From NCBI GenBank assembly GCA_965655095.1, contig OZ296648.1:56668001-56732000 (forward strand): a DNA stretch of 64,000 nt. Direction: 5' to 3'. The DNA is from Haplodiscus bocki (lineage: Eukaryota). The notes below the pieces were generated by a model, which did not search any database, had not been told where the DNA came from, and saw only the letters and a program-made list of their open reading frames with translations. This document shows positions 10,155-64,000 of this stretch, in pieces. How positions within the stretch are numbered: the first letter of the stretch is position 1; each line of letters begins with the position of its first letter. A program made the position numbers and the translations under genes.

Positions 10155-12984
10155 CTTATCAACAACTATTTCCCTACTAGTGAATATTCAAGGAATGACA
10201 CCTGAAAATAAACATGTTGACTTGCTAACTCTATTGCAACTTCGCAACCTTGATTAACTTTTCTTATCTGAGACATGATTGAGTCCTCTATTTGATGATG
10301 CTTTCTGTTCTATATTTGGAACTTTCTATGTGGTGACGAGAGCGGATCGCATTCAAGGTACTCATGGTAGTATTATTATTCTCTGTCGCCGTATCTCAGA
10401 CCTAAACATCTCCGAAATAATTATCGACAAGGATTATGATTTTCCTGTTGCTGCTACGGTACAAAATTCTCATGATTCCGTGGCTCTACTCATCCTTTTC
10501 TACCTACTTCCTGTCACAGGCTCCTATAGGATACTTTTCGACTTCTTCAGTAGTTGTTTGGTGGATGTTGTTCGGAAAGCTGAAAACTTCTCCCCGCCTG
10601 ACAAGTTCAACCTGTCCCTCATCGTGCTGGGCGACTTCAACTTTCCCGACTGAGATTGGTCATCTATGTTTAGCACTAACAAGCGTGAACTTGAGTTCCT
10701 GGAATATCTCAACTCTCTTGAATTACGACCTCCTATCACTACTTGGCAAACGCATCGCTGTGGAAATATTCTTGACAACATTGTGACTAATGACAACTTT
10801 ATCACTGGTTACTCTATTGATGATAGTAGCTTAAGTCACCACTCTTCCATCATTTTTATTTACTCTTTCGATTTTAACAAACCCTATCAATATCCAACTG
10901 AATATTCGTTCAAGGACCATACCGACACGGTGAACTTTCATAATTCCAGTGAAGAGTTCAGTTTTACTTCATATACTTCAGAAGCCAACGTGAACGAGGT
11001 TTATTCGTTCGTTGCATGGAGTCTAAACACTTGTTTTCCTTTCAAAAGGAAAGTTCGGAGGAACAAACTTTTTCATTACAGCTCACATACATTTCACTAT
11101 TAGAACAAGTTGAATACAGCTAGACGAAAGTACTCTAAAAACCACATTAGAAACAATCTTGATGGTCTTCAATCGTTACAAAGGGATTCTTTGGATTCTG
11201 TTGAGTTGGATAAGACTATCTACATCAATGGATCATCAACTTCCAGCCTCAATCAATGCTTCTTGTTTTTGCACAGTCTCAAAAACCCTTATTTACCGAA
11301 GCAAATGTTTCGTTCGCAGGAGAAATTACTTCACTCTGAAATTCCAACTGCATTCAACAAATGTTTTGCTGGAAATTTCGATTTTGATTCTTATGATGGA
11401 TCGATTCAACTTATGGTGCTCTGAAATTGGATTCTGTTTTAGATTTTGTCTCCAGCTCTTCTATTACACCTGAAATTATGAGATCTAAAGAGTCCACAGT
11501 CTCTTGATTTGATGGTTTTCCAATCAAATTACTTGTAAGAGCTGCAGCTCTGTTTGGAATAATCTTCTATCCTTTATTTTGTTCCATAATCTTCTGTAAA
11601 GTTTTCCCCTCCATATGGAAAGTTGCTCGGATAACTCTTCTTTTCAAATCAGGATCACGTAACAGTATAATGTGTTATCGTCCAATTAGTTTGCTGCCTA
11701 AGATCTCTCCCATTTTTCAGAAATTGCTTTTTTGTTTCCTTTTTTTGAACTTGAAATCGAAACTACATCCCAAGCAGTTTGGCTTTCAGTCTCATAAAAG
11801 TTCTGTTCGACAACTTAAAAACTATCTGGAACGTGTTTATCAAGAGAAATCAATAAATCGTTCTTCAGTTTATTTTGACTATGAAAAGGCCTTCGACAAG
11901 GTCCCTCATTCTATCCTGTTCAGAAAACTTAGTCTCTACCTTGCTTTTGGTTTTTGTTCGCTCTTTGAATCTTACCTTATGAATAGATATCATAATGTGC
12001 ATGTCAATCACTTCAGTTCGGATCTCATACCTTGCGTCAGTGCTGCTCTTCAGGGCTCTGTTTTTGGACAATTTTTTTTATGTTTGTTAATGATTTACCA
12101 TCTATCTTCTCGGACTGCATGGTGTGGCTGTTTGCTGATGATTTGAAACTCTTATTTTCCAACCTCATTTTCACGATGATCTTTGGCGACTTTATTCCTG
12201 GAATCTAGTAAATGGAATGATCGTAAACTCAGACAAAACCAAAAGTATTCACTTTACAGGTACCACTCAAAGAACATTTCCGGCTGACCTTCTACTTGAG
12301 AACGTGAATTCGCAAAAAGATTTGGGTGTGTATGTTGGATATGGTCTCAAATGGAACCATCACTTTACATAAAAACTGCACAACGCCCGTGAAAGCTTCT
12401 TTTCTCTGATGTCTAAAGTACTCTTCAACACCCCCTTTATTATAAAGTTGCAGCTGTACTATAGTAGGGTGTTATCAATTCTGCTTTATGGTTTCCCAGC
12501 TTGGTATGCCGACATTACATCTCTGAAGCGCCTTGAATCTTTTCAACAGTCCTGTTTCTCCTCAATTTTTGGACGCAAGCGATCTTACCAAGAGCACCTC
12601 AAACGATCACAGTTTCTGCCTATTTGTTATCACCTGGAGTACATTACATTCTCTTTCCACTGTCAACTTTTACATGATAAATACATTTTCAATTTTACTT
12701 CTTATTTAGTGTTTCAGGTACCCGAACGTCAACTCCGAGCTTCAATGACCAATATACTCCGCTATCTGAACCCAAAGCGTTATGAAAACGTTTCTTTTTT
12801 CGGTCGTGCTACCACCATGGCAAACTTCTTGTTCAGAAATAACATAATCGATGGTTTCAACAACTTCAACAAACATGCAGTCGAAGCCTATCTTCTGCAG
12901 AAAGAATTTAATCCTACGTTGTCTTGTTCAATTTTCATTTGTTGTACTTGCAGTCAATGTAATATCATGAAGAGTATTTGTTAA
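10155..12984 (+). pseudogene. LINE ORF2: apurinic-type endonuclease + reverse transcriptase
   Basis: LGDFNFPD, THRCGNILDNIVT, LSHH; YRPISLLPKIS, QFGFQ, YFDYEKAFDKVPH, QGSVFG, WLFADDLK; terminal CSIFICCTCSQC. Confidence 0.9.
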
Positions 12985-13011
12985 CGAAATTTGGATCTCG
13001 AAAGAGAATTA

Positions 13012-13017
<6 letters not shown>

Positions 13018-13091
<74 letters not shown>
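13018..13091 (+). repeat. (CT)n microsatellite forming the LINE 3' tail
   Basis: Seen directly; ~35 nt after the ORF2 stop. Confidence 0.95.
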
Positions 13092-19688: not shown

Positions 19689-19699
19689 TGTAAACTTAC

Positions 19700-20480
19700 A
19701 ATAACTAACTCTTTTTGATTAAATATGCCACGTATAATCTCACCTTATCATCTTTTTTTTGTATACAGTTTCCAAAGTTTCTTGCGTAAATTGTGACTTG
19801 TAAACTTTTCGGAATAGCTAATCAAACCTTGAGACGCAAAATATATCTCTCAATCAAAGTTTTAGATTTCTCTACTCCAGTAGGGGTCTGTTGTAAAGAG
19901 TGGACAAAAAGTCGGAATTCTTGTCATCCTTTGGTTACAAATCAATCGAGCATTTCTTTCTGGAAGTAAAAGTTATGACACACTGGGTCTCACTCATAAT
20001 AAGGTGATTTTTTAATTCCTTGAGTTTGATAATTTTTTTCAACTTTTCAGCAAACTCGGTCTTTTTCAAAACCCAACTGTTTATGAGACATCTTTTTCAA
20101 TCAGGTTTTGAAACGCTCTTAGAGTCTGTTTCGAATCTTTTGTCTTTATTCCCTGTGAACCTACTGTTCGATCTAAGAAGTGTTGACCAACTACTAGAAG
20201 CGTTACGCCATTTTTCTTTGTTGCCAGTTAATCAACAAGAGCAAGATCTAAAAACCGAAGTTTTATTTTGGACCTACCAAAAGCCTTCATTTTCTTTAAT
20301 TTTTGTGTGGTCCAATTAAATTTTGCGTAAAAAGTCTTTGATTGCGAAAACCGTTTCACTTTTGATACTGGCGGATTGCTAGTTTTTGATAAATTGCGCA
20401 CAAATCCATAAGCAGCAGCACCTTTAGTGTACAGCCTTTGCCATTTCCGCCGTTCAGTTCTCGAAAACGACCCAGTTACC
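19700..20480 (-). pseudogene. retroviral-like integrase (no PHD finger)
   Basis: LYTKGAAAYGFVRNL..SKVKRF..FYAKF; FLDLALVD; LLVVGQHFLDR; WVLKKTEFA. Confidence 0.7.
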
Positions 20481-20483
20481 CTT

Positions 20484-20860
20484 CTATTTGGTTTTTGCAA
20501 TCTGGCTCAAAACCAGAGTCAGAGATACTCCAGCAACGTCAAGTGAGGTAAAGCAAGTTTCGAGAACGTCTGCATTTTCTCGACGCAGTTGTTGAGCCAA
20601 GTCTGACAAAAACACTCCGGTTTCTACACCATCCAGTTTTAGAGTCTGCGAATATGAGAGCGTGACACGTGGATGAGACAAAACTTTGTCAACTAAAAAA
20701 CCTGCTTTGGCAGAAAAGTTTGATACCTTCCTTTTTTAACGAACCAAATTGGTCCGTACTCAGCTCAGAACATTGGATGTTCCCGCTTTTTATAAGACTG
20801 AGTATTCAAACTTTTGTTGTTGTACACAGGAATAGGGACGAGAAAAACTGCTCCATATCA
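20484..20860 (-). pseudogene. conserved uncharacterised Polinton protein
   Basis: PRVTLSYSQTLKLDGVETGVFLSDLAQQL resembles the syntenic ORF at 54235-54902. Confidence 0.5.
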
Positions 20861-27919: not shown

Positions 27920-28558
27920 GTCCGTTTTTTAACCCGATGTTTGCCAATTGGGCTCGTGCAAAATCGATGTTGGCTCGTGTATTGCCAAGATTGCAGGAAT
28001 GGCCAAAATGGACACAATGGCCAAAATGGCCAGAATTGACAAAATGCCAAACCTGCTAAAAATGCCAAAAAATGCCAAATATGCCAGACATGCCAAATAT
28101 GTCAAAAATGCCAAAAATGCTGAAAATGCCGAAATTGCCGAAAATGCTAAAAATGTCAAAAAATGCCAAATATGTCAAAAATGCCAAAAATTCCAGAAAT
28201 GCCAAAAATTTCAAAAAATTCAAAAATTCAAAAATTCCAAGATTGCCGAGACTGAAATAGTAAGATATCTCAAAACGTCAAAGTTTGGGTCTTTTTCGAA
28301 AAAAAACTTGAGTTTTATTCAAAATCGAAAAAGATGGCAAATTTGCTGCAGAATGCATATCAAAAGGTTTTATTTCTTAAAAATGTCTTCCACATTGATT
28401 ATGCGGTTTTTCTGGCAAAAAAAAATCAAAGAACGTTGAACGTTGGAAAAATTAGACACTATGATGAAGAAAGAGTGTTTTTTCGGAAAAAGAACGTTTT
28501 CACTTTTTACAAAAATGGGAAGGCGCAAAATATGCCGGTGGTAGCCGACCGTCTTGTT
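27920..28558 (+). mobile_element. non-autonomous Helitron/Helentron-like repeat with internal minisatellite
   Basis: 3' imperfect GC hairpin GCCGGTGGTAGCCGAC followed by CTTGT|T; internal tandem repeat; 5' end uncertain. Confidence 0.4.
27981..28250. repeat. 9-bp minisatellite (consensus AATGCCAAA)
   Basis: About 30 degenerate units, seen directly. Confidence 0.9.
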
Positions 28559-41340: not shown

Positions 41341-42095
41341 CTGGAGACTCATATGTCTGTGCAGAATGTAGAAACAAGATGAATTTGGATTTGACTTAAA
41401 GAACTTTCATGAATGATTGAGAGATTGTTCTCTATCCCCGTGTCATACCCAAATCCTTCATTATTATTGTTTGTACTATTTTTATAATTATTATTCATAT
41501 TGCTGTAGTACAGTATTGAAGGGGGCTTAAACCCAAACAGTATCAATCCCCGCAATTTTTGAGTAACGAGAGTTTTGCTTCTGGGTTACAGTATCCACAT
41601 TAACATAAAATGCGTCATGTACAAGTGTTGTCCTCGTTGTAGTGAAGGTCCCGGTACTTCCAATACAGTGCTGTGAGTTTTTCCTTTACAAGAGTTACGT
41701 CTAGATGAAGATATTCGCCAAACAAATTCTATAGGAAAACTGCTGTTCTGCTTTTCAGTATGAAATTTAGCGGGTGCGGTGGCGCATTTAACAGACCGGT
41801 TTTGTTCGAGAAACATTCTTTTCTTTGTAAGGAATTTTACAGAAGAGTGATTTAACCGTAGCTTGAGATATTACAAAGCTGCGGAAGTTGACCTCAGAAT
41901 TTCACTCGCCCAGCTTCGGATCATCGCCCAGGCCCTTAGAGCTATTCAAAATTTGTCCTCGCGTTGTCATGCTGTAAGCTACAACTGAAGTAAACCATAG
42001 GTGTTGGTTTTACTATACTACTCTGCTACTACTAAGCCAGGTAGGAATCAACCAGTAATCCGCCCTTTTTGGAAGCGTTCTGCAACAATAGGCTT

Positions 42096-42097
<2 letters not shown>

Positions 42098-42135
<38 letters not shown>
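42098..42135 (-). repeat. (GA)n = (CT)n LINE tail
   Basis: Seen directly. Confidence 0.95.
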
Positions 42136-42141
<6 letters not shown>

Positions 42142-42183
42142 CAATTCCTTTTCAGGTATCCAAGAAATCTAAGAAGAGAAAGA

Positions 42184-45011
42184 TCATATCAGACTTTTCA
42201 AATGTGAGCATTTAGCACAGCAGCAACAAATATAATAGGTACAAGTGTTATCGAAATCAAAGGTTTTATTCAACAGAAAAAGTTTTACACTTCTGATTGA
42301 GGATGGATGCGGTTCACTGATTATAGAATGACGATGGAGATAATTGAAAGACATAACTGAGTTTCTCAGAACAGAATGTTTCATGTTCGAAGAAAGGACA
42401 AGGGGGTTGAAAGAACTCAGCCTTTTATAAGGTTTTCGTGGCTGATACGTCACCATTTCATCAACATTGTAGGCGTATTTATTTAAAAATAAGTTAAGTA
42501 GAAGTGAATGGGACTCCAGCTCTATATGGTAAGCAATTGGCAGTAGGTTGTTAGTTTTCAAAGTTCTTTCATAATTCAGCTTTTTTCCAAAAATCCACCG
42601 GAAGCAAAATTTTTGGAAGGACTCCAATTTCTTCAACGAAGACATACTTGGAGAACAGATGACGGTGCCATAGAGAAGGACAGATAGGACCATGCTGCGA
42701 TAGAGGTTATACTTTGTCTTCGAAGGCGTGCTCCAAGGAATAGTATTTTTCAGAAGAAAAAAAAATTGCGCGCTTTGCTGATTCTGATGTCAATATGGTT
42801 GTCCCATTTCAAGTTAGAGGTCACTACGACTTCGAGGTCTCTTTGCGAATTTACATTCATCAAGTTAATGCCACTTAGATTAACGCCAGTGACAGATTTA
42901 AAGTTGAGAGTCTTTGTTTTAGCTGTGTTGGCTAGCATTCCATTTGAGAGGTTCCAGTTATGCAATCTACTTAAGTCGTCATGGAAGTTAGCTGTATTGA
43001 ACAAAAGTTTCAAATCATCGGCAAAAAGCCAAGGTATAGCATCTAAAAAGATTGCTGGAAGATCATTAATAAACAGTCGAAGAAGAAGCGGAACCAATAC
43101 AGAGACTTGTGGTACTCCACTAAGTACAGGAAGGCATATGAGAGCTGACCTTGGGCAGAAACTTTTGCGTTCTGTCGAGCAGGTAAGATCTCATCAAAGA
43201 AACGAAATTCAGATCCATACCAAATGTGTGAAGTTTCTTCAATAGGACAGCATAAGGCACTTTATCGAAGGCTTTAGCGTAATCAAGGTACTCAGCAAAC
43301 AGAATGCTTGAAGATTGTCTGAATATAGTTTCAAGATAGTCGGGAAGTTGCAGGACTGCTCCTCGTCTGGCTTGGAAACCGAATTGTTTCGGATGTAGTT
43401 TGTCTTTGATGGCTGAATAGATGTAATTGAAAAGAATGCGTTCAAAAATTAAAGAGACTTTCGGAAGGAGACTGATGGTTCTATAGTTTTCTATGCAATT
43501 TTTAGGACCATCTTTATGTAGCGGTAGTATGTGAGACACTTTCCACTCTGGTGGAAAAATCCGGGTCAAGACAACCGATGAAAATACAGGATGCAGAAGT
43601 TTTCCAAATAACTCTGAGTGAAGTTTCAATAGACGTGTGGGAAAGCCGTCGTGGGTTGGTGACGTAGAAGACTTCAGATTGTTTACGAAGTTGACAATTT
43701 CCCAGGGAGAGAAGGTGTGAAGTACTCCATCAAGCTCAAGTGAGCAGTCGGTCGAAGGCACAACATCATCAAAGTGTTGCAAGTTGAAATTTTCAGCGAA
43801 GAAATCATTGAACCCATTTACAATTGCAGCAACTGAGTTGAAATAATTGTCTCCGCGGAACATTATTTGAGGAAGGGTTTGGCTGGAAAGAGAGCGCAGA
43901 AGTTTGAAGCTTTCAGAGATTATGTGGGTGGTGGAGCCATGAAGTAAAGTGATTCTGTCCAACTCTGCAGAATCGTCGAAATCTTTCTGTGAGCTTTTCA
44001 GATTGGTCAAGTTTTTATTAGTTGGATTTCGTATACAACGTCGTTTAAGAGTTTCATGTCTATTGTAGCAGTGGACAGTGTGTGGAGTGTAATAATATGG
44101 TAACTTTACACGTTTTGTTCGTTTCTTGACTAGAGTAAGAGCGATTGCATTATGAAGGTGTAAGTAGAATTCTTCTACGGTGCTACTAGGGTGGTTGGAA
44201 TAATCAAAGGGTTGCCAGTAGCTTCGAAATTTGTTTAACGAGCGCAAGTTGTTAAAATTGTATTGCAGAGGACTAGATACCAATACGAGTTGTTCTGAAA
44301 TAATACACTCAAAAAATATAGGATAGTGATCACTGATATTGGCACCCGAGTCGATTGATAATTGATTGAAAAGGGAAGGATCACTCACTAGAATGTCATC
44401 CAGAACAATGTTAGCTAAGTGCGTTGGGGTGTTAATAATGATTGGAGTGAGAAAGTGATTGCTCAGAATATCTAAGACATGAAGTTCATAATCAACGCTA
44501 CTACTCAACGTTTTCCAATGTGATTTCGGAAGATTGAAGTCACCTAAGACAAAAAATGGGGTAAAGAATTTGAATGTTCAGAGATAAGAGAGTTGAGGAG
44601 GCTATCAATGCACGCAGAAAGTTCATTTGCTGATACACTGTAACGACTGCTAGAAAGGGGAAGGTAGACAAGTAGCAGTAGTATTGGTGAGACATTCCGG
44701 CTATTTAGCACGAACGCACAAGCAAAGTCGAAACAGTCATCTAGCGGTATTTTTGAGAAATTGATGCTAGAGGACACCCTTTTCAAGGTAATGACCCCGC
44801 CGTGAGGGCCATTACAACGGTCACGTCTTCCGATTACAGTGTACTGCCCAAACAGCGAGGCAACATTGTCGTCAAAAGTGTGATCCAACCAAGTTTCAGT
44901 GATGAATGTGGATTCAATTTGGTTGGTGATAAGGTAGTCAAGTAGGCGTGATCGCTTTGCTATAGTTGTTAATCCACGAGCATTTAGAAGACATATCTTT
45001 GGGTTAACTAG
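42184..45011 (-). pseudogene. LINE ORF2: APE endonuclease + RT
   Basis: ICLLNARG, ITETWL, DRCNGPHGGV, LGDFNLP, ISDHYPI; NYRTISLLPKVS, QFGFQ, YLDYAKAFDKVP, GVPQVSV, WLFADDLKL; terminal CTYYICCCCAKC. Confidence 0.92.
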
Positions 45012-50040: not shown

Positions 50041-53000
50041 GTTAACCGGAGACTATTAGTTAAATGAAAACAAAGATGAGTTTCAATTTGATACCAAGCT
50101 CTGTCATGTCCGACGAAGTGATGCCCTGACGAGACGAATTTGTTGAAAAACTCTGACGTGTATTTTATTTGATTAACACGGAGACCAGAATTACTTTACA
50201 GGAAACATCATGACTCTGTGGTAGCTTTTTATGTTTTCATTTTCTCACACTTTTCTTGCATAAATTACAGATTCACTTTTCATTCTCGTTGATGAGCATT
50301 TATAGGACTGCTTGTATTTGTTCCTACCAGATATTAATTTTTCTTTTCTTCACTGAAATTTTAATAATAGCCAGTGGCGCTGTAATGTTGTGTCAGCAGC
50401 TGCGCAAAATTGATTGGAATTACAATAATTAGTTTTAACAGAGAGCATGTACTTTAGCTCTAACGCGATTTTCGTAGAAAAAAGTAACCAATACAACGTG
50501 ACGTGTTGACAGTCACAGCTTTCCAATGTGAGTCAGAGAACTAGTGTCATTACCATCGAATACTCTTCTTCGCACAGCTTTTGACGGAAAACTGGGACAG
50601 ACTTACATCGGGTAGTTTGAACGAAAACGATTTTGATTATCGAGAATAAACTTGACTAATTTAGTTTTTCTTTGCATTTTCTGGTTGTCAGGGTTCAGAT
50701 AGAAACAAGATAAGCCACGATAACGTTATCTGATATTTTTCTGGAATCAAGAAGCTTACGATTGCGACCTCGATGGAATCAATTCTGCCGGCAGTTTTGG
50801 AGAAAAGAGAGTTTTAACATCGATAAAATGCATACGTAGTTGCATCAGCAGTTTTTGGTCTTTTCGGCTATCAAGCTTCCGACGTAAGGAAATAAGCTGT
50901 GTTTATATTGTCCAATAAACTTTAACACGGCAAGAATGATCACAGTCAGCAAGCACAACCAACCCCTCCCTACACCCCTCGCCTCTACGTCTCCAAAGTA
51001 CTCATGAGACGGAATTAATTTTGATGTTTGAAAAAAATGTAGTTTGGTAAATTTTATGGGTATGAAGTAAAAAACATCTTATGCTCGGATTCGCAACCGC
51101 TACTCGTCGATTGACTAGATTATCTAAGGGGGTATCACGAAGTTCGTTTCGATCGGAAGGTTTAATTTTAATTCAAGACCGTCAATTCGACCAACTGTTA
51201 CAAATGGATGAAGGCCATGTGAATTCTATCATCCTAGGAAAAAAATTAAAGTCGGCGTCTCTAAAGTGAAGCGCCAACTTAAATAGAGACTTTGATAATA
51301 GACCAAGCAGTAGTTTTGTTGGACAAAAAATGAGTTTCAATTCGAGAAAAGCATTGCTAATTGAACTTCTCGCGTGGTCGACCTATCAGGGTTCCAATAC
51401 AATGAACAGACGCGATGATAACTTCATTGAATAATTACACAAATAATAAAATTGTCGATTGCGACTTTGTTTGAAGAAGTTCAGCTGGGGCTACTGAAGA
51501 TAATTGACTTAGGTTGACGCGGAAAGTCTACTATGTGTACTTTTTTGCTAAATCCTGCTCGTCAGAAGTTAATTTTGATATCGACAAAATTCTTGCAGTT
51601 GCGCTTTGGCCTATCACAGAGTTTCGTTGGCACAGAAAACTATTTCAAAAACACTCTTGCCCTGACGCTCGGGAACAAAAATGGACTCAAAGACTGTAAG
51701 GTTATGCTGTGCAGTGTCACATATCCTGAAGTCTGTTTGAAAAAGGAAATAACGGCTTCAGCAAAGACCCTCCGAAGGTACAGCGACAGGCTGAAAAAAG
51801 ATAAAAGCCTCTCGGGTAACTTCCGACTTGGGATGTCAATTTAAAGTGATTTGGGAGTTCCAAAGAGAATGCTGTTCACCATTCGGTTGCATAGACGACA
51901 AAGAAAGAGTTGCTCATTTGTCTAAGAAACTACAGGAACTACAAAAATCCGGACCAGTTTTCAAAGATTCGGTTGTGGACTCCATCGACATTCTCATGCG
52001 TGGTTTTGGGACAATGGAGGCCTCACATCACAACAGCATACTGAAGGTCGACTTGGGTTGTTCCAATGCTCAATGTGAACGCTTTGAATGCCTTGAAGCG
52101 CAAAACTCAAGCATTCCATTCTACAGTTGAGACGATTTGAACTATCATTCAATTTTATTCAATTTTGTTGATGAGAAGACTTAATTTTCTTGAACCTTTA
52201 TAAATTGAAACTTCAATCAAAACGGTTGCTTTTTACCTAATATCAAAGTAATACACCATGCACAGAATTTTAACTGCGCTAGAACTAGATGACACTCTGA
52301 TTGAGATAACATTTCTGTTTCCCAAAAACACTCGACGCAAAAATGCATTTTTAGCCGTTTGTTATAGTTTGAATAACGAAATAAATTTGCGTTACGTCAA
52401 TGAATTCGCCGAGTTCGGAGGACTCATAGGCCCTGGCAGCAGCAATTTGGATTTTTTTTTTCAAATATTTCAAAGTAATTCGGCTTCATGCAATTTTTCA
52501 TGATGCTTTTGGTTTCATGAAAAGTAATTATAATCTTGGACCTGGTTACGTTTATGCATTCTCGAAGAAACCAATTTTCGCGAAAAGTATGTTTCTACGA
52601 CATATCACTGGTTTAGCATATTGGCTTGGGATGACACTCTGCAAAAGCTCAGATTACAGCGTTTTCACTTTAATCATTTTCAGTTTAGCTTCCACAGATG
52701 TCAGTCGAGCGTTCCTACGTGGAGACATCCATTTCTTTTCCCATTTTGAGTACCACAAACCTGACTGGACGAATAAATCCTAGAACGACATTAGTCTGTT
52801 TAGAGCAGCCAACACTTGCGAGTTCAAAAAAACGATAGAATTTAAATCGGATAAATTTGAATTTGACAGAGCTGCAACGATTTCACCACTTTTTAGGTGT
52901 TTTACTAAACTTAGCAGGTTATCAGTCTACTCTTGATCAACAAACATGACAAAGAGCCTCACCAATGGTGATTTTCTTGACTCGATCAACATTGAAAACG

Positions 53001-53231
53001 TTATTTTTGACGAGCAGAAGAAAAAGATCTTCCTTTGAGGCAAAATTATGCTGCCTCGAAAAGACTACTTGCAAGAGTTTTTTTCGTTTTGACACTTCAC
53101 TATTCCATCATTTTTGTGGTTGTTTTGTTCAGTATTGGTTTCTTGACCTTTAATTTTAAAACTGACTATCATTCTCGAGTGCTAGCATTAGTATCGGCTT
53201 GCATTGGATATATCATACCAGGCCCAAAAGC

Positions 53232-53928
53232 ATGAACAAAAAAATAATACCAACCCTCACTGCTTTCTGTCGGTCATTGGCCCGGGTGGATGTTGTAAAA
53301 CTCAACTGGTCTCACGAATACTCCTCAACCAAAAGATCATTTGCAAACCCTGCTTCGAGAAAATTTTGTTTTTAAACATTTTCAAACTGATTGCGAATCG
53401 CTTCTATTGGGATTCACACGTGAAAAAATTTCAACCGAATTTCATCACGGACTTCAATGGACAGCAGTTGACAAGAGTGAGGCTGAGAAGCTAATAACAC
53501 TAGTAGTTATCGACGATCTCTATCAAGATGCGTGCGAAGATGAAACGTTCCTTAACTTGGTTGTTGGTGGAAGACATCGGAACATACATTTGATGACTCT
53601 GAGACATAACATTTACCAACCCGCAAAAAATTCAAAAGCGATAGATCTTAACGTAACACAAATGATTCTTTTCAAAAGTCCCCGAGATGTTGAACAATTT
53701 GAGGTGCTGGGTAGACGAATGGGTGACAGAAAACTTATCCTGGAGGCTTTTAAAAGAGCTACGTTAAAACCTTTTGGTCATTTACTGATTGATATGGATC
53801 CACAAACGGATCCCAAACTGAAATACTGTTCAAATTGTAGCGGAGACCAACCCAGTGTTTTTTATATTTCTACAACCCTAGCAAAAGAGTTAGTCAAAAA
53901 TGAAGCAGCGCAACTTTTTTATTCTTGA
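53232..53928 (+). pseudogene. A32/FtsK-like packaging ATPase
   Basis: Walker A GPGGCCKT; Walker B LVVIDD; GGRHRNIHL; FKSPRD; PFGHLLID. Confidence 0.9.
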
Positions 53929-54235
53929 ACTGTTCATTAAATTTAAACCTGTCTTTAAAACAGTCATTTCCTTTAAACTGTCCCACTGAAATCATCAAGC
54001 TTTTCTGCAATTGTCTTTTTAACGTTGTATATGGCCAAATTAAAATGAGTGCGAACGTTTCAGCAAAAAAAACTAAAGAGGCATAAAACCAGTACTGCAG
54101 TTATCTGTAAAATAATAGCGGAATTGCGAAAAAGCGTCAACTTCTAGCTACGAGAAGAGGTATTAAACTTCTGAAACTGATCGATTTTTCTGTTCTCAAT
54201 CATTTGAAGAAACGACTCGATATTAAGCAGCAGCA
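53900..54235 (+). pseudogene. conserved small basic Polinton protein
   Basis: NCPTEIIKLFCNCLFNVVYGQI..KKRQLLATRRGIKLL. Confidence 0.55.
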
Positions 54236-54902
54236 TGAAAGAATTTCTGTTGATAACGTTGGACGAATACACATCCCTAATTTGTTCCAAAAATCAATCT
54301 AACCACAAAAAACATCCCTCTTGGCATCACAGTGCACAACTCGGTCAGAAGACACTCTGAACTCTCAGACTGATTTGCCAGACAAAAACAATTCCCTGTT
54401 CGAGAACGAAAAACTCTGCACACAATTAAACTTGAATTGTAGACTGAAACGAGCACAAATACGGAAAGATATAACTTCTGATGACGCCCTAGGTGACCAG
54501 GCCAAAACATTAGCAAAAACGGACCGATTTGATCTCGATTTATTGTCCTCGGGACTATCGGGTGGAGAAATTGAGCGGGCAAGGCAGATTCTCCAAAAAG
54601 TCGGTGAGTGCAATGTCATATCGATCGATCGTAACTCCAGTCGACTGATGCTTCATGTTCGAGACCTAGGTTTGACGGTATTTGACTTTTTGATCGATTT
54701 AAAAACAACCAAAAAAAACCTGAATGAAGGAACCTTAGATCTAGTAAGACGGTTAGAGTTGCCGAATTTTCTACTTGCAAATACGCTTGCAAAACAGGTA
54801 GCAACAGAAGTGGCCGACTACGACGACAACGGTAAAGATGAAATTGGAGGTTGCTCCGCAGTCAAGTGGCTGCGATTATACTACGCAGGTTTGCGTAGCT
54901 AA
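54235..54902 (+). pseudogene. conserved uncharacterised Polinton protein
   Basis: 193-codon frame; syntenic and similar to 20484-20860. Confidence 0.55.
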
Positions 54903-54977
54903 TTCATTTAACAGACACGTTTCCCATATAGTTGATTGTTCAGGGAACAGAACTGAGACACAGAAAAACGTGGTTGA

Positions 54978-56177
54978 ACAAAAGTCAAGAGAAGAGTAAA
55001 GTACTTCTGTGGAAATTGCGCCAAAGAGTTGACCAAAGGTTCAGGTCAAAAACCTTCTATATGGTGCAACATTTGCGGCTGGGTACATTTCAATTGCAGC
55101 GGTCTTCAACGGCTCGATGACTATAAAAAGACTATGGACTTCCTCTGCTCAAAGTGTGCTGTGACACGGAAACTTGTTGATCCCACAGCGGAGTCCTTAG
55201 CCTACAGCAAAATACATCGCGTTTACACGTCTTGCAACAACCCAGCTGCTTTCGCCGGTAGAACTGATCTCAAGGAAGAGTCGAAATACAGCTACAGACA
55301 AGTTGACAAATATTTAAATCGGAGTGAGACCTATACCAAATTCAAACGAACCAGAAATTGCTTCTCTTGGTTAAAGGTCCAGAGTTTTCGATTGAATGAA
55401 ATTTGGTCCGTTGATTTGGCCGATATGCAAAAACTATCCCGATACAACCACGGAATTAATTTCTTTTCCGTAGCAGTAGACACTCTGAGCCGCTTTGTGT
55501 GGGCGCTGCCATTGAGAAAAAAAGACTGCAACAGAATGTAAAAATATGTTGCAAAAAGTCATGGAAGCCCTTAGCGTGCGAAAATACAGTTCAACAGAGG
55601 TGATGAAACCGAAGTTCTTACGGCTCAGTTCGAAAACTGAACCGAAACCTGAAAAAATTTGGGTTGATAAGCGCCGAGAGTTTGCCGGTGAATTTTCTCA
55701 ATTCTGCAGAGAAAATGATATCGAACATTATTCGACACATAGTGAAACCAAATCGGCGTTTGCTGAGCGAACCTCCGATCTTTAAAAGCAATAATTTTCA
55801 AACATGTGCACGAAAACAACACAGACACGTATATCGAAAGTTTACAGCATTTCGTAAACGTGATCAATTGTCGAGTGAATCGCACCACAAAGCTAGCACC
55901 AAAAGACGTTGAAGAAAGTGATATTTCGCATCTGATTTTCCTTCAAACTCCCAAAGAAATTCGCGAGCACAAATACAAAATTGGCCAGCAAGTTGGAATT
56001 CAACGAAAAATCGAAACATTTCATAGAGGGTTCCACCGCATTCAGTTAACAGAGGAAGTTTTCACCATTACCGCAATTCAAACACTGAACCCTCGCCCAT
56101 ACACCATAAAAGATGCCAGCAATCAGTTGATCCAAGGCAAATTCCACGAATCCGAACTAACCCTCTTTCAAAAATAG
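54978..56177 (+). pseudogene. retroviral-like integrase with N-terminal PHD finger
   Basis: YFCGNC..IWCNICGWVHFNCSG..FLCSKC in frame with YTSCNNPAAF, WSVDLADM, AVDTLSRF; then IWVDKRREF, KSAFAER, EEVFTI, IQGKFHESEL*. Confidence 0.88.
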
Positions 56178-56217: not shown

Positions 56218-57152
56218 ATGTCATTGAGGGTGTTCACTATAAATTTAGTGTCCAACGCATCCATGGCGACGTTTCCTGAAAATACGTTGGCCCATTTCAC
56301 ATCTCTATTACCCCAACAACTTAACCGAACTGGTTTCTGGGAAGTGGCGCTAGCCGAAATTGCATGGCCGGCAACAATACAAAACATACCATCTGGTCAT
56401 TTCAGGTATTGAGTCGCGCCAGAAGCACGAAAGGACAACGATGTTAGCAGCAGCAGCATAGACACTCGAAAAAGAAAGGTAAATGCAAGGCCCTACGGAA
56501 TGGTTACAATGTGCGAACTACCAATACGTCCTGTTCAATAGGCTATCATTGAAAAAGTCGGAAGAATCAAACCAGGTGTCTATCTAACCGTTGATCAAAT
56601 TCTGCGTTCAATTTGTAAGCAAATTTTTAGAGGGCACATTGACGACAAGTTTCCCCTCTCGTGGAAACTGGATGCCTCATTAGAATCTCTGAAACTCTAC
56701 TCTGAAGGTAGTGAACAAGAGTTTATTTTTGGAAACCATATCTAAAGAACGTTTTGGGCATGAAAACACTCATTGACTGTTCTGAACTAGGCAAAACCAG
56801 CAAGCAAGCTAACAACTCAGTCCTATCCAAAACCACCGGAAAGTTTCCGGTAGACCTCACTGGTGGCTGCAACACAATTTTTGTTTATAGCGATTTGGTG
56901 CAAAATGAAATCTTGGGAGACAGTCGAACTGCTTTGCTGCGAGCCATTCCATTGACAGAGAAACCGGCTACCGGGATTCAGCAGCAGCAGAATTATCGGA
57001 CGTTTGGCAACCTCCAATGGCGCCGCGTCGTAAAGTCTAGCATAGCGTCTATTTCAGTAGCGCTCCGGAACGAAACAGTCCAATTGGTTCTGTTTCTCAG
57101 TCGTGGTTGGACAAACTTAACTTTGCATTTTCAACAACGCCTTGAACAATGA
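56218..57152 (+). pseudogene. minor capsid (penton) protein
   Basis: FTINLVSNASMATFPENTLAHFTSLLP..WEVALAEIAWP; IFVYSDLVQNEILGDSRTALLRAIP; LTLHF. Confidence 0.88.
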
Positions 57153-57867: not shown

Positions 57868-59207
57868 ATGGCAGCGAGTAAAAACAATGCAACAGCCATA
57901 ATAAGTCGATCAACAGAGATTGCCAATCCGGTGACACACAGTGCGCTTGACTTTATCGAGAGACCAAGCGTTTTGAATAATTACGAGGGATCTTTCGACC
58001 AAGAAGTTTTTCCCCACAAAGGCTGGCGTGGATCCCAGTTGGTTTTTTTTTGTAACCGTCGAAAATAGAAATCGATCAATCTAAACCGCATTTGCTTGGC
58101 TATAGAAGTGTGCTCTACCAACCTGATGGCACAGAAATGGTCAAACCAGCAGATGTTGACATGACGTTTGCAAACAACACGTTACTTTCTTCGTTTTCAC
58201 ACGTTGAGATATTCTTGAACGGAAAATTGATTTCTAGTAGCAATAACAACTATCGCCATTTAGCATTCATCGAAACCGAATTGACCTTACTAGTAAATTT
58301 ACGTGGGCCCCGTGTCAAGGTTATAAGTAAAGAGCAAACGACAAAGCAAACCAAGAAGTGAAACAGAAAGAGCTGAACGAGTTCAGAAAGGGCGAGCAAT
58401 TTAATCTCGAGCTGTATGGAGCACCACATATAGGCCTTTTGGATTGTGATCGGCTTTTGTTGCCGGGAGTTACACTCCATTTGCGCTTTTGCAGATCCCC
58501 AAACACTTGAGCAATCGAGAGCAAGGGTACGTGGGCGGCAGCAGACATCAAGCGAATTGACCAGACACCGTACGCAGTAGTCATTGAAAGAGCCTCTCTG
58601 TTTGTGAACAAAGTTGTCAGATGCTGTCGAAATCAGCATTGAAAGAGCTTTGACTAGAAGCACAGCTGTGTACCCATATATTGAACGTCTAAACAAAAGT
58701 TTCATCATCCAGGCTGGACAAAATTGTTTGGTTAAAGAGAATATTTTGGGCGCCCAACCTGTGCGGAGATTGACTCTTTGTATGGTCAGAAACGCTTCCG
58801 TGGATCAACAATTGAATCCAGGCCTTTCCAAAACAAAAAATTTCAATTGAGCAAAATCGAAATTCAGCGAGGCAACGGCGTTCCAATTGCTGGCACACCG
58901 ATTGATACCACCAAAAACACTCGTCTGTTCTACAACAATTTGTGCTCTTGGTTTCACAAGAGGTGGCAATGGAATCGAAATGGCCGGTTTTGAGAATCGC
59001 TACTTTTTAGTTTTCGATTTGACTTCGTCAAGAAGCTGGTGAAGCTCTCACTTAATTTCCAGAGCTCACAGGTGCCAGTATCACATTGAAGTTGAGCTTT
59101 GCAGAGGCGCTCAGTCATCCGGTAGAGGTATTTCTTGTCGGTGAACGCTTCAGTCATCTTTTTTGACGCCATGCACAACATATTCAAAAACAGCCTCATC
59201 GATGGAT
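57868..59207 (+). pseudogene. double jelly-roll major capsid protein
   Basis: HSALDFIERP; FANNTLLSSFSHVEIFLNGKLIS..NNYRHLAFIETEL; DRLLLPGVTLHLRF; VFDLT; ITLKLSFAEAL. Confidence 0.88.
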
Positions 59208-59867
59208 AATATAACTCTTGCTGAAGTAGCCCAAACATGTTGGGCTTCATCGAGATCAAAAATTGTTGGACTATGGTTGGCAGATAATTTTTGTTTGATG
59301 TATTCTTTGCCCCGCCGCCGACAAAAAGCTACAATGCAGCAAAAAAAATGAAATCAAAGTACACGATTCTGTCTTGCACGTTCAATCCTATTCCATTATG
59401 AACACTTCACCGGGCGGAGTTGTCGGAGCGCATTGGCTTCCTTTGCTTCTATTGTATGATCAACAAAAGCCGTGCAACATTCGAGAGGAAGGAACTTTGT
59501 TTTTCTGTGTTTGGGATCCTTTGGGCCAGCCTGTAGAACGCTATCAATTATTCTATGATCATTTGCTGAAAATTTCGAAAAAACAACCAAAATTAAAATA
59601 CTTCAAGACCTAAGATTGCGAATCCAAGCTACTCATTCAAACACTTGTGGTCTCTATTGCCTCTACATTGCACATTCTTTCATTCAAAAAATTGAGCAAC
59701 AATCAATAAGCTTTGGCAATTTTGATTCCTTTATTTTGTCGTTATTCCAGCCACTGAAGAACTTAAAGGATTTGTATGTAGTTTTACTTTGCAATGAACA
59801 CTGTAATACAAACCTTTTCGACCAAAAAATTAGTTTTGAATTCCCACACCAATTTCAAACTTTTTAA
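59202..59867 (+). pseudogene. adenain-like cysteine protease
   Basis: IMNTSPGGVVGAHW (His), WDPLGQP (Asp), IQATHSNTCGLYC (Gln, Cys). Confidence 0.88.
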
Positions 59868-59949: not shown

Positions 59950-62900
59950 TCAGAGCGTTTGTTTTTTCTTTAAAGAGCACACTGCGGCATCACAATCGTC
60001 ACTATCTTAAGAATTTCGACTGTCCTCAGCCTCATAATCAATGAAGGGACAGCTAGTGAGGCGTTTAGAATCTAGACTCGACTCATCGTCAGTGAGATTG
60101 TCAAAATCCACACACTGCGATTCTTCGCAGGAATCAAGGTCATTTTTTTTATTGAGATAGTACTCAGGGCCATCTAAAAAATGAAAAAAAATATTACCTA
60201 AAAAGAAATTTCAGTTGGAATCAGCTTTTGTACACTCCAAACAAAAATGTGTCTCGTTAAAATGATGTTTTGCCCTATCAAATTGTGTAGGAGTAACTCA
60301 CAAAAACAGCTGGCAGCTTTCCATGCCTTTGCCAAGGATCTGTCTTTGTTGGCAAAGAGCCTGCTGACGTTAGAACTGGTTTGAACCTCCTTGTCTTGAT
60401 TGCTTGCCGTAGAAATAACACTGTCACTATCAAAATCATCATCATCATCATCACCAAACTTAGACGAATTCAGAAATAGAGTCAATATCAACTAAACAAA
60501 AAAAACGTTTCGTACATTTGTCTGCTGAGATCTTACTTTGTAAATTTGTAACTTCCTGGAAATTTGCTTCGGATTAATAAAAGAGTATTGTCCGTAGGCT
60601 AGAGATGACACAGTATCGTCTAAGATGTAGCGCTTGTCGTCAAAACAACTGAGAGCAACTTTGTTCACAGCATTGACCACAACTTGATGCCCAGCCGATC
60701 TTAGTTGCGTCATTTCGTAGAACATATTTTGATAGTAAGCAGTTCTTGAAGAGACTGTGATGTAAAGTTTTTTGACGGATTTCTGAACAACTTTAGCGAT
60801 TTGTTTAGTTCCACCCAGATAATCAATTCTATATAAATTCGATCTGAGGCAAACTACTTCTTTCGAGACTTCTCCATTAAGCTCATCAGTCATCGTAACT
60901 GGTACTTTCTTGTTTGTTTTATGGTGAAGGATGTGGTCATCCGGTTAATCCGAAAGTTCGAGGAGATGCTTGAAATTTGACATGTTTTCATAGAAATCGG
61001 CAGTATTTATTCTGTAGAGTAAGGATTCAGTATCTTTATAAACTACTTACAAACAATCTGATCCATAACGAGGAAGCAGCTCTTCGTAATGAAACTTGTA
61101 CAAGGAGACCGTTGAGAGATCCAAAATAATTGCACCCACTGGTGTAGGTTTGCTCCAAAGTACTGAGGAAGCCCGAAGGGAAACAGACACAAGATTATTG
61201 CTAATAATTTTGAAGTTCTTGAACGTAACTCGTTGGGTGAAGGTTTCAGCTTGCGCTTCGGTTGTAACGAATCGCAAACAACCACGTCTCCGTAAATTCT
61301 CCATAGTCTTGCCGAAGCAAGCGTTCGACATCAGTTTGTAGAAATTTTTTTCCGAAATCATTGGCAGCTTGCTTTCGCAATTTGGTGTTTATAGATATGT
61401 TGGCTCCGAGCCATTTTGATGGTTGGAACTATACTATCCGATGGAGTATCGTGACTTTCAATCCATGATGTACATAAAACTTCAAGTTTTCGGAATGACA
61501 AATGTAGTGATGCATGTCTAACAAAGTTTCCACAAGTTTTTCAGCTGCGGACCCTACATTGAAACCAAAAAAGTTAGCGTAATCTGATCTTCAATTTATC
61601 GGAATTTTGAGCTTTTCTGGCGCAAGGGGAAGGTCATTGTTGACGTCGTGAATTGCAGGTGGATACTCAAGGTCCACCTCAACAAAAAAATTGAAAGGAG
61701 AGTCTGCGGGTGTTGCGGATATTTTCGAGAGACTGATTTCAGTGCACCATTCATATCCCCCGACTGGCATCTTTTTGCATAGTACCAGCATAAAGTGGTG
61801 TTACGTCAAAGAAAGCACCAAAGGTAGATTCCTTGTTTGAAGTAAAGTTTTCGAGGTATTTGTTATTTGCTTCGAAATGACGAAGGGCTCCCAAACCATT
61901 TATTCCACCGCGAATTCCTTTCTCAAAGAAGAACAGCTGATAAATGTCCTGCAATAATTCCAGTTTCTCGCCAGTACTAATGAGCATTGCATCCCAACTC
62001 AGGTTGGGTGCTGAATAAAAGTGTGCTGGATCCAAGTTCTAAATTTGCATGCAAACTACTCAGAACTTTTGGAAAATATCAGCCAGAGGAAACACGTCAG
62101 TTCGTAAATAGATATCATGGTAATCTAAGTTTTTACATTTAAAGGCGTTATAAACTCCCAAGGCAAAGTTCTGCTGTTCTTGGGTGACTTCAATCGATTT
62201 CGTCAAAGTGTTGTACTATAGGGAACCTTGAGGTGGGTAAGACTCATTAATTTTCTCGAAACTGTCCAGATAGTTGTACGGGAAGAAACCTTTCTTTGTG
62301 AGGTTCTCAAAAAGATTATCTCCAATGTTTGGGAAGCCAGCTCTCAACAATTTGAAGTCACTTTTGTCGACCGTTTTCGCTAACGAGTCCAAACTTTGCG
62401 ACATGAACTGGAAACTATCCAAAAATCGTAGAGAATGATAGAGCACAACATTGTGGCCTACCTTGCTTTTGAAACGTTCCATCGGTATATCCAAAGAGAA
62501 AGAAATGTAAGTTTCATCATTTTTTTCAATAGCCGAAAGCTTTTCTCTATCGTTGAGTTTCAAATATTCTATAATGTGATGGGCGTCATATCGTGATAAA
62601 TTGTGAAGAAAATATTGGCAAGAATCGCGTGGTCTTGGCACGAAGGTTACACTGAGAGTGAGCAGCGCCAATTATTTCTCCAGTCAAGTGACAATGGTGG
62701 ATAACTCCATGATTAAGCTCAACACTTTTCCGACACAAGCAGCAAAGGATTTCTTCTTTGTTCATCAAGATGTTTCTGTAATCTGTAGAGATCTTCAACT
62801 GTTTGAATTTTCGTTTCTCGACATAACACCAAGCTGACCAAGATCGAAGTAAATCCATAAGACGAGTAATAGTTTCTGCCTTTGTAGATCTTCTCCCTCA

Positions 62901-64000
62901 CCACAGCGTTACCTAAACAGACAACTCGTTAATTCCTCTGAAAGCTGAAAAACGTTACCTAGAAGCAGTAGGTATATTGCTAGGCAGATGGAATACTTTG
63001 TAATTCGAGAAAAGGGTGGAAACTAACATCTTCCGTCCACGAGGATGGCACCGAAACTGCATGGATACTGTCTTTCAATTTCTTTTGTGTTGGAACAGAG
63101 TTTATTGGCATCTACAGAGCGGACATTGATGGCTTCGAGATGCGCGTACACCACAAATGGAACTCGTTGGGTTTTTTGCCGAATCTTGAACTCAACGTTT
63201 GGCAAGGAAACAGCCATTCGAACTTCAAGAGGGTCATTTGACTCACAAAAATTTGTATGTCTTCTGTAATTTTTGTTTATTATAGGTTGGAAGCCGTTTG
63301 AACAGAATTTAGACTTGGAGCCGTGCTTTTTTTTTCTGATCGAGTCAGGCGCTGAAGCAAGTTGGAGAAGTTTTTGATTAGAGAATAATAAGTCTTGCAA
63401 CCACTGACCAAGCGAATTTACCCGCCGTTTAGAGCTTTTGTTCTTGCTGTAAAACACCGCTACCCAATTTACCATTCTCCAGCTCATATACATTAATAGA
63501 GACACTGTTTCTTTTCTCGAAAATCGCTATACTGGATAAGGACATTAGCATTCGACTTGAGTTGAGCTTTAGCATTTTCACGTTTTGTTTGCGAGATTTT
63601 GTGTAGGTGGCTCTACCGTTGAATGGAAAAATTGCGGCTGCAACGCAATACAAAAAACAAAAATTGTCGTTTTTCTTTTTCACATTCAAAAGACTTTTCG
63701 AGAGGCCTTTCATTAAACGAGGTGTCTCAATGGCAGACAATCCGCTGAGGGTTTGGCAAGTGGCAGTTTTCACTTCCACGGACTGTAGGCATTCTATTGC
63801 CCAACCGGAGTCGCAAGAAGCAAAAAGATTGAGCTTCGACATTAGTTGATCTGCGTGGTCGAGATATTCTTCATCTGTGATGTTGTTTGCGATTCTCGCC
63901 AGGAACGAATTGAAGAATGCTGTGACTTTGTCATTGTTTAATGGTTTCACCAGGTCGACGGCAATGGTAAAGCCAATTTTCATTTTGAGAGCTTTCTGAA
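59950..64000 (-). pseudogene. polB: protein-primed family B DNA polymerase with OTU-like N-region, EndoVII/HNH-like insertion and putatively spliced acidic tail
   Basis: NDNFCFLYCVAA; PFVVYAHLE; HHCHLTGEIIGAAHSQCNL; HNLSRYDAH; RFLDSFQFM; KGFFPYNY; DPAHFYSAP; GIRGG; FDVTPLYAGTM; KLMSNACFGKTMEN; YKDTES; FDDKRY; SLAYG. Confidence 0.95.

What the first reader, a model, noticed from the sequence alone, without database searches (positions are those of the whole stretch)
54978..56177. Polinton integrase with an N-terminal PHD finger and no C-terminal chromodomain
Seen: a complete C4HC3 pattern (CGNC-x13-CNIC-GWVHFNC-x16-CSKC) in one uninterrupted frame with the integrase N-terminus and first catalytic Asp motif; the protein stops right after GKFHESEL. 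Element A's integrase has no PHD. Known: many Polinton integrases carry a C-terminal chromodomain, and PHD fingers read histone H3 tails. Inference: a swapped chromatin reader that could steer integration-site choice.
Basis: partly seen in the sequence, partly recalled or inferred. Interest (0 to 1): 0.8.

Follow-up and report, generated by a model that had tools for sequence, protein, structure and literature searches.

The report
Polinton integrase with borrowed PHD finger
A family of virus-like transposons (Polintons) in this animal genome carries a PHD-type zinc finger fused to the front of its DNA-inserting enzyme; the finger was likely taken from a retrotransposon and probably helps the enzyme grip chromosomal DNA, but nothing yet shows that it reads histone marks or steers where the element inserts.

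Summary
The fusion is real. The window holds a decayed copy, but the genome has at least 151 matches, and 12 of 60 loci examined carry the finger and the whole integrase in one unbroken frame. Those elements have inverted ends and 6-bp target duplications. The finger models as a PHD fold and is under purifying selection like the rest of the integrase.

The 'swap for a chromodomain' reading is not supported: PHD-less relatives also lack a chromodomain.

New here is the likely origin. The nearest non-Polinton fingers among 1.84 billion proteins sit at the N-terminus of non-LTR retrotransposons. They share the same one-residue-short spacing and often follow a 2A-like NPGP motif, which the deepest-branching Polinton lineages still keep.

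Histone reading is unproven. The cage tryptophan is kept, but other cage and pocket residues are not, the finger is basic (about +5.5), and the flanks of three PHD families match genome background. Best reading: a captured, maintained tether to chromatin or DNA. My literature searches found no Polinton integrase with a PHD finger. Verdict: new variant of a known kind.

The parts
55008..55157 (+). PHD-type Cys4-His-Cys3 finger (short C4-x3-His variant) at the integrase N-terminus
   Evidence: Sequence; Pfam PHD E 0.061, below cut-off; model of the domain from other copies matches PHD structures
55158..55523 (+). Integrase N-terminal helices and start of the catalytic core (first Asp at 55413), same frame as the finger
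   Evidence: 79% identity to an unbroken copy
55516..55773 (+). Middle integrase piece (second Asp motif WVDK), shifted frame
   Evidence: (rve E 0.016)
55770..56177 (+). Integrase C-terminal piece with beta-rich (SH3-like, label recalled) end; stop 5 residues after GKFHESEL; no chromodomain
54950..54977 (+). Decayed start region: no start codon; first codons lie in another frame
53237..53925 (+). Packaging ATPase gene of the same Polinton (broken)
   Evidence: (Pox_A32 E 0.005)
56218..57149 (+). Minor-capsid-like gene (broken; label from position and recalled likeness)
57868..59206 (+). Major-capsid-like gene (broken; label from position and recalled likeness)
   Evidence: no Pfam or NCBIfam support
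59202..59819 (+). Adenain-like protease gene
   Evidence: homologue in an unbroken copy hits Peptidase_C5 E 2e-4 (117)
60579..63980 (-). Family B DNA polymerase gene (broken); element continues about 1 kb past the window to its right inverted end
   Evidence: polymerase motifs in an unbroken copy (123)
51578..54881 (+). Four conserved uncharacterised ORFs of the element (plus the ATPase) upstream of the integrase

Best explanation
A Polinton lineage has a PHD-type zinc finger fused to the N-terminus of its integrase, likely captured as a 2A-plus-PHD cassette from a non-LTR retrotransposon and probably serving as a broad tether to chromosomal DNA or nucleosomes rather than as a strict histone-mark reader. 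Steps: (1) shown: one ORF, many copies, working integration footprints (6-bp duplications). (2) Shown: the finger is conserved under purifying selection. (3) Inferred: the cassette came from the start of a retrotransposon ORF2 and landed in frame upstream of an integrase that already lacked a chromodomain. (4) Inferred: derived families, including the window's, lost the 2A-like motif and use a start codon a few residues before the first Cys. (5) Inferred, untested: in the integration complex the basic finger adds contacts to target chromatin and raises capture efficiency without strong site choice.
For: One frame in 12 of 60 loci; 407-aa ORFs. About 16-kb elements with AGTAGT ends; exact 6-bp duplications in 10 of 12 paired ends. 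Model pLDDT 79.7; all 44 Foldseek rows shown are PHD-finger proteins by title or recalled content, best VIA Z 5.1, rmsd 3.4, 60 aligned to BPTF. pN/pS 0.21-0.51 in the finger against 0.13-0.44 in the rest, 49 of 66 pairs with pS over 0.15. Origin: of 95 weaker library hits left after setting aside 6, 57 have NPGP or an endonuclease-start motif. With 2A columns removed, the 12 best non-Polinton fingers (40-56 bits) all have the short spacing; best of 26 host-gene fingers 19 bits. Several carry APE or RT domains. 12 of 122 proteins have E-x-NPG just before the finger, in the two deepest branches of the PHD clade. The finger tree places Polinton fingers in a 95/85 group otherwise made of retrotransposon fingers. 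The same genome holds 2A-PHD-APE-RT elements with the same LLxRAGIE-NPGP type of motif. The 2A-PHD-APE layout is published for non-LTR elements (PMC3708506, passages). Function: net charge mean +5.5 (34 fingers) against -1.2 (26 host-gene fingers); no acidic residue after C3 in 34 of 34, no aromatic or Met at C3-3 in 34 of 34, Trp/Tyr at C3-1 in 34 of 34. Basic PHDs can bind DNA (PMC5636791, passages). Flank GC of three PHD families 0.374-0.381 against background 0.374.
Against: No binding data of any kind. The cage Trp two residues before His is kept in 33 of 34, and Tyr/Trp lies two before C1 in 21 of 34, which fits H3K4me reading; the best structure and sequence matches are H3K4me readers. 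VIA Z 5.1 is middling, Foldseek E is 0.015 at best, and FYVE/RING-like fingers score 4.1-3.8. The basic charge is shared with the retrotransposon fingers (+4.7), so it may be inherited, not adaptive. The finger tree has only 53 columns and long-branch warnings; the integrase trees are midpoint-rooted quick trees, so direction of transfer rests on parsimony. The library hits were preselected with a similar profile, 4 of whose 14 rows held 2A residues. The own-genome 2A-PHD retrotransposons score low (at most 14 bits), so the direct donor was not found in this genome. Flank GC and CpG are weak proxies for chromatin.
Confidence: 0.5

Rival explanations
1. The finger is an H3K4me2/3 reader that steers integration to active chromatin, as RAG2's PHD does for RAG1 (recalled) and as chromodomains do for chromoviruses.
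For: Trp at His-2 in 33 of 34; aromatic at C1-2 in 21 of 34. Top PDB sequence hits PHF23 (E 6e-4), KDM7, PHF13, TAF3; top folds AL3, KDM7A, TAF3, BPTF. An invariable Trp and 2-4 aromatic residues define the cage, and Pygo1 binds without an Arg2 pocket (PMC3241642, passages). Only 1 of 69 PHD-family sites has flank GC under 0.33 against 5 of 40 background stretches.
Against: Met/Trp cage position of PHF23 and KDM7 aligns with Ser/Thr/Leu; the Gly/Glu before C3 is Trp/Tyr; no acidic Arg2 pocket. Basal 2A lineages have Leu at C1-2. Strongly basic. One PHD-less family also has 0 of 28 AT-rich sites, and CpG o/e is 0.90-0.95 in all groups.
Confidence: 0.27
2. The finger binds the element's own terminal inverted repeats and helps assemble the integration complex, like the cross-brace finger of piggyBac transposase.
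For: Basic cross-brace finger; piggyBac CRD binds transposon ends (PMC5861402, abstract). PHD families sampled share a G-rich run a few bases inside the AGTAGT end.
Against: A PHD-less family also has a G run near its end; another lacks it. PHD-less families integrate with exact duplications. A finger from a retrotransposon is unlikely to arrive with specificity for Polinton ends.
Confidence: 0.13
3. The cassette was first kept for translational control by the 2A-like peptide, and the finger serves folding, nuclear import or a protein contact, not chromatin.
For: Retrotransposon 2A-like peptides often lower protein abundance (PMC13405545, passages). PHD-less relatives have Lys/Arg-rich N-termini in the same place.
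Against: Most PHD families have lost the 2A motif yet keep all eight zinc ligands. The Polinton motif has Gly where the canonical motif has Asp (17, 27), so skipping is uncertain.
Confidence: 0.1

Closest known systems
Polinton/Maverick (adintovirus) integrases
   Same: rve-type DDE core, Polinton gene set, AG-type inverted ends, 6-bp duplications (PMC6839031 passages).
   Different: Described with a predicted chromodomain (PMC8502044 passages) and without an N-terminal zinc finger (PMC2836005 passages). Here: N-terminal PHD-type finger, no chromodomain, and a 2A-like motif in basal lineages.
APE-type non-LTR retrotransposons with 2A-PHD-APE ORF2 (CR1, Crack, L2, Ingi clades)
   Same: 2A-like NPGP motif directly before a PHD finger at the protein N-terminus (PMC3708506 passages).
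   Different: Here the cassette precedes a DDE integrase of a DNA element instead of an endonuclease and reverse transcriptase.
Ginger1-9_HM transposase (Gypsy-integrase-like, Ulp1 + PHD)
   Same: Integrase-like enzyme with a PHD finger (PMC2836005 passages).
   Different: PHD is C-terminal beside a Ulp1 protease; cut-and-paste element without polymerase or capsid genes.
piggyBac and PiggyMac cysteine-rich domains
   Same: Cross-brace zinc finger on a DDE/DDD enzyme; binds end DNA (piggyBac) or weakly the H3 tail (PiggyMac) (abstracts, 108, 109).
   Different: C-terminal, different ligand order, unrelated enzyme family.
Chromovirus integrases
   Same: Accessory chromatin module on an rve integrase; linked to heterochromatic location (PMC6839031 passages).
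   Different: C-terminal chromodomain with a shown targeting role; no targeting is shown here.

Membership tests
Polinton/Maverick | Retrovirus-like DDE integrase | tested here: met
   rve E 3-6e-7 (just under the cut-off in P0001/P0002, over it in relatives); D, D, E motifs, D-E spacing 33 (123); fold matches PFV/RSV/HIV integrases, E 1.5e-12 (40)
Polinton/Maverick | Family B DNA polymerase | tested here: met
   1283-aa ORF in unbroken copies with HN..YD, D..SLY, DTDS and KxY motifs; no Pfam polymerase hit, only C2H2 and Endonuclease_7 (117), so met at motif level; window copy broken
Polinton/Maverick | Terminal inverted repeats starting AG and 6-bp target duplication | tested here: met
   10 of 12 paired ends exact. 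Window copy: right end found past the window, left end not found
Polinton/Maverick | Packaging ATPase and adenain protease | tested here: met
   Pox_A32 E 4e-4, Peptidase_C5 E 2e-4 (117)
Polinton/Maverick | [quoted passage not shown] | tested here: inconclusive
   455- and 314-aa ORFs in the expected place and conserved across families, but no Pfam or NCBIfam hit and not folded
PHD finger | Cys4-His-Cys3 ligand set | tested here: met
   All eight invariant in 14 of 14 rows; C4-His spacing 3 instead of 4 in 39 of 43 matches
PHD finger | PHD cross-brace fold | tested here: met
   pLDDT 79.7 (49); Foldseek top rows PHD, prob 1.00, E 0.015 (57); VIA Z 5.1, rmsd 3.4, 60 aligned to BPTF, FYVE at 4.1 (58). 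Moderate strength
PHD finger | Pfam PF00628 curated cut-off (24 bits) | tested here: not met
   13.8-18.7 bits; close retrotransposon relatives with long spacing pass it
H3K4me3-reading PHD | Invariable cage Trp | tested here: met
   33 of 34 (120); feature from PMC3241642 passages
H3K4me3-reading PHD | Cage of 2-4 aromatic residues | tested here: inconclusive
   Aromatic at C1-2 in 21 of 34; none at C3-3; side-chain geometry not inspected; position mapping partly recalled
H3K4me3-reading PHD | Acidic Arg2 pocket (frequent, not universal) | tested here: not met
   Asn/His/Thr after C3 in 34 of 34 (120)
H3K4me0-reading PHD | Acidic cluster before the first Cys | tested here: not met
   Lys/Arg-rich in the rows; feature from PMC3241642
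H3-reading PHD | Binding to H3 tail | not testable with these tools
   Needs peptide binding assays
2A-like peptide | GD(V/I)ExNPGP motif after a leucine-rich tract | tested here: inconclusive
   12 of 122 have E-x-NPG after Leu-rich tracts, mostly with Gly in the Asp position (17); absent from the window's family (8)
2A-like peptide | Ribosome skipping activity | not testable with these tools
   Needs a reporter assay
Chromodomain-bearing integrase | C-terminal chromodomain | tested here: not met

The most novel reading that the evidence does not exclude
A chromodomain-less Polinton lineage regained a chromatin reader by capturing retrotransposon PHD fingers, possibly twice (the short-spacing clade and the P0094/P0095/P0297 lineage with a different finger), and uses it to read histone H3 marks and choose insertion sites: a virus-like DNA element with a built-in, N-terminal histone-mark targeting module.
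Probability: 0.22. Interest if true: 0.8.

Novelty: new variant of a known kind. Interest (0 to 1): 0.6.

Why it matters
It documents a likely domain transfer from a retrotransposon to a virus-like DNA element, with a traceable relic (the 2A-like motif), and a Polinton integrase architecture I did not find described. How Polintons choose insertion sites is open. This genome holds PHD-bearing and PHD-less families side by side with intact ends, so the question can be tested on natural insertions once chromatin maps exist. It also offers a way to learn what the many retrotransposon PHD fingers bind. If the finger proved to be a histone reader, it would be a new natural route to chromatin-guided integration.

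Tried and rejected
1. Direct chromodomain-for-PHD swap: rejected. Own-genome PHD-less families have 316-349-aa frames that end at the same motif.
2. Separate ORFs or chance Cys pattern: rejected.
3. Capture from a host chromatin gene: disfavoured; best of 26 host-gene fingers scored 19 bits against 40-56 for retrotransposon fingers.
4. Long proteins sharing the 2A-PHD region: word-based search found none among 168 candidates; weak evidence, superseded by the profile search.
5. Viral contigs: 28 pattern matches, none confirmed, so no chromodomain-bearing outgroup was obtained and the trees are unrooted.
6. One or two PHD gains: not settled. AU p 0.38 on the integrase core, 0.07 on the finger.
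7. Targeting signal: flank GC of PHD families does not differ from 40 background stretches (p 0.64-0.86); one PHD-less family is AT-biased (0.319, p 3e-5), another is not. A first two-family comparison suggested a PHD effect in GC and in distance to chromosome ends (p 0.02-0.04, one chromosome and unplaced contigs left out); the GC effect disappeared as a PHD trait once more families and background were added. Only the first 24-30 ends per family were examined.
9. Expression: no RNA holder listed. ESM Atlas gave no answer.
10. The careful integrase tree did not finish; quick trees are cited.
11. The (TC)n inverted repeats at 13000 and 42100 are retrotransposon tails, not Polinton ends.

Full report
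1. The observation. The frame 54978-55541 (+) holds eight zinc ligands in the order Cys4-His-Cys3 at 55008-55157 and continues without a stop to the first catalytic Asp motif of an integrase at 55413. This copy is decayed: there is no start codon before the finger, and the integrase lies in three pieces with frameshifts near 55520 and 55770. The last piece stops five residues after GKFHESEL and the next gene follows within about 40 bases. Pfam gives only a sub-threshold PHD match (E 0.061).

2. It is a family trait. A search of the own genome (1.5 Gb) gave 151 matches, a lower bound since 150 of 12,401 candidates were scored. Among 60 loci examined, 12 carry the finger and the whole integrase in one frame; several are 407-aa ORFs from start to stop. 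They sit in elements of about 15-16 kb with AGTAGT inverted ends and the gene order ATPase, integrase, minor-capsid-like, major-capsid-like, protease, polymerase. In the first 30 of 102 ends of one family, 10 of 12 paired ends have an exact 6-bp duplication. The polymerase is supported by motifs, the ATPase and protease by weak Pfam hits; the capsid labels rest on position and recall. The window's element shares its end sequence with one of these families; its right end lies about 1 kb past the window and its left end was not found. Database families as low as about 51% identical to anything found in this genome suggest the clade extends to other hosts, which are not named.

3. It is a PHD-type finger. 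All eight ligands are invariant in 14 diverse copies. The model has mean pLDDT 79.7. Foldseek's listed rows are PHD proteins, best E 0.015. VIA-align ranks BPTF first (Z 5.1, rmsd 3.4, 60 aligned), then TAF3, Pygo and PHF2, with a FYVE domain at 4.1. A profile of 36 homologues hits PHF23 at E 6e-4 and KDM7, PHF13 and TAF3 more weakly. Each result is moderate, but they agree. The variant is one residue short between C4 and His (39 of 43 matches). pN/pS is 0.21-0.51 in the finger and 0.13-0.44 in the rest over the 49 of 66 pairs with pS above 0.15; pairs are not independent and distant ones are near saturation.

4. No swap. Adintovirus integrases are described with a predicted chromodomain (PMC8502044, passages). 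Of 207 homologues from two searches, 162 have a locatable C-terminal motif. 40 of 40 PHD-bearing ones and 112 of 122 labelled PHD-less end within 20 residues of it; that label includes some truncated members of the PHD clade. None of 22 long or odd proteins scanned has a chromodomain, and the long tails inspected run into the next gene. PHD-less families in the own genome end at the same place. The chromodomain was thus absent from the wider lineage, and the PHD was most likely added to an integrase that already lacked it.

5. Where the finger came from. Twelve of 122 proteins have a leucine-rich tract ending in G(V/I)ExNPGP a few residues before the first Cys, and one such family lives in this genome inside complete Polinton gene sets. 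This resembles the 2A-like motif that Odon et al. found at the start of non-LTR ORF2, in some cases followed by a PHD and then the endonuclease (PMC3708506, passages). A profile search of 1.84 billion representatives gave 143 hits. The strong ones are Polinton integrase fragments. Of 95 weaker hits left after setting aside 6, 42 contain NPGP, 30 show an endonuclease-start motif and 57 have either; APE or RT domains were confirmed in several. Because 4 of the 14 query rows held 2A residues, I rescored with those columns removed. The 12 best non-Polinton fingers (40-56 bits) all share the short spacing, while the best of 26 host-gene fingers scored 19. A 53-column tree places the Polinton fingers in a 95/85 group otherwise made of retrotransposon fingers (few columns, long-branch warnings). 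In integrase trees the 2A-bearing families form the two deepest branches of the PHD clade (quick trees, midpoint root; the '2A' label on P0025 is a pattern artefact). The genome also has 2A-PHD-APE-RT elements with a near-identical motif, but their fingers score at most 14 bits, so the actual donor was not found here. Capture from a non-LTR element, followed by loss of the 2A motif in derived families, is the simplest account (about 75%). The motif lies upstream of the finger, so skipping would not part finger from integrase. A second lineage (P0094, P0095, P0297) has a different finger; one versus two gains is unresolved (AU p 0.38 and 0.07).

6. What it does. H3K4me3 readers have a cage of 2-4 aromatic residues with an invariable Trp and often an acidic Arg2 pocket; H3K4me0 readers have an acidic cluster before C1 (PMC3241642, passages). 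In 34 fingers, Trp at His-2 is kept in 33 and Tyr/Trp at C1-2 in 21. The position that is Met in PHF23 and Trp in KDM7 is never aromatic or Met; the residue before C3 is always Trp or Tyr; the residue after C3 is never acidic. Mean net charge is +5.5, against -1.2 for host-gene fingers and +4.7 for the retrotransposon fingers, on slightly different spans. A basic PHD that binds DNA and not histone peptides is known (BAZ1A; PMC5636791, passages). Transposase cross-brace fingers can bind end DNA or, weakly, H3 (PMC5861402 and PMC8086355, abstracts). Flanks of three PHD families (20, 29 and 20 sites) have GC 0.374-0.381 and CpG o/e 0.91-0.95, like 40 evenly spaced background stretches (0.374, 0.90); one PHD-less family is AT-biased and another is not. 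I therefore favour a broad tether to target DNA or nucleosomes (0.5) over a mark-specific reader (0.27), end binding (0.13) or a non-chromatin role (0.10). None of these is shown.

7. Comparison and novelty. PHD fingers are a common accessory of mobile elements: CR1, Rehavkus and Penelope-like elements (bioRxiv 2021.04.23.441226, passages) and, C-terminally, one Ginger1 transposase (PMC2836005, passages, which also says Polinton integrases lack an N-terminal zinc finger). Earlier unchecked notes of this scan report PHD fusions to other recombinases and integrases; they are leads only. Searches for Polinton or Maverick with PHD finger, PHD domain, plant homeodomain, chromodomain or 2A peptide (listings, with 20 of 148 shown) and term look-ups in five papers (no 'PHD' in any) found no Polinton integrase with a PHD or 2A. 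Repbase reports and subscription papers are not in the library and I read no supplements, so a prior annotation cannot be excluded.

8. Verdict. This is a new variant of a known kind: a Polinton integrase with an N-terminal PHD finger, maintained by selection and likely captured from a retrotransposon, whose targeting role is unproven. Interest 0.6; 0.8 if histone-guided integration were shown (probability about 0.22).

Noticed in passing
L172-L175 (e.g. L172:4424-6127, minus): Penelope-like RT-GIY-YIG elements with a PHD finger inserted inside the reverse transcriptase, between the QxxGxxMG and YVDD motifs; four loci, Pfam PHD 25 bits. PHD insertions in Penelope-like elements are published for algae at other positions (bioRxiv 2021.04.23.441226, passages).
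   Followed up: partly
L254-L283; related to the window's other Polinton (19697-20512): A young PHD-less, chromodomain-less Polinton family sits in AT-rich DNA (flank GC 0.319 against 0.374 background, p 3e-5; 13 of 22 sites under 0.33). It shows a site bias without any known reader domain.
   Followed up: partly
P0094, P0095, P0297: A second Polinton integrase lineage with a different, canonically spaced PHD finger resembling those on CRE-like and Penelope-like elements; possibly an independent gain.
   Followed up: partly
L201:932-5626; L188-L199; L205; L206: Single-ORF non-LTR retrotransposons with 2A-like motif, one to several PHD fingers, APE, RT and, in L201, RNase H.
   Followed up: partly
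L161, L163, L176; P0222: Non-LTR elements of CRE-like type (label recalled from motifs) with an N-terminal PHD finger; some share the short spacing.
   Followed up: partly
G000:C6:2108156-2130927; C2:42123678-42137996; C4:13222073-13241728: Tandem arrays of Polinton fragments with periods of about 3.3-5.6 kb.
   Followed up: no
L221/L222 (G000:C1:106582849-106599043): A PHD-family Polinton inserted into the minor-capsid-like gene of another Polinton.
   Followed up: no
L037:5272-9120: The polymerase ORF starts with C2H2 zinc fingers and contains an endonuclease VII-like domain, recalling the HNH-bearing pPolB2 class (bioRxiv 2023.08.22.554363, passages).
   Followed up: no
window 12081-13091 and 42094-43998: Two retrotransposon 3' ends with (TC)n tails in opposite orientation that mimic inverted repeats.
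   Followed up: partly
window 27978-28240: A 9-bp-period tandem repeat.
   Followed up: no
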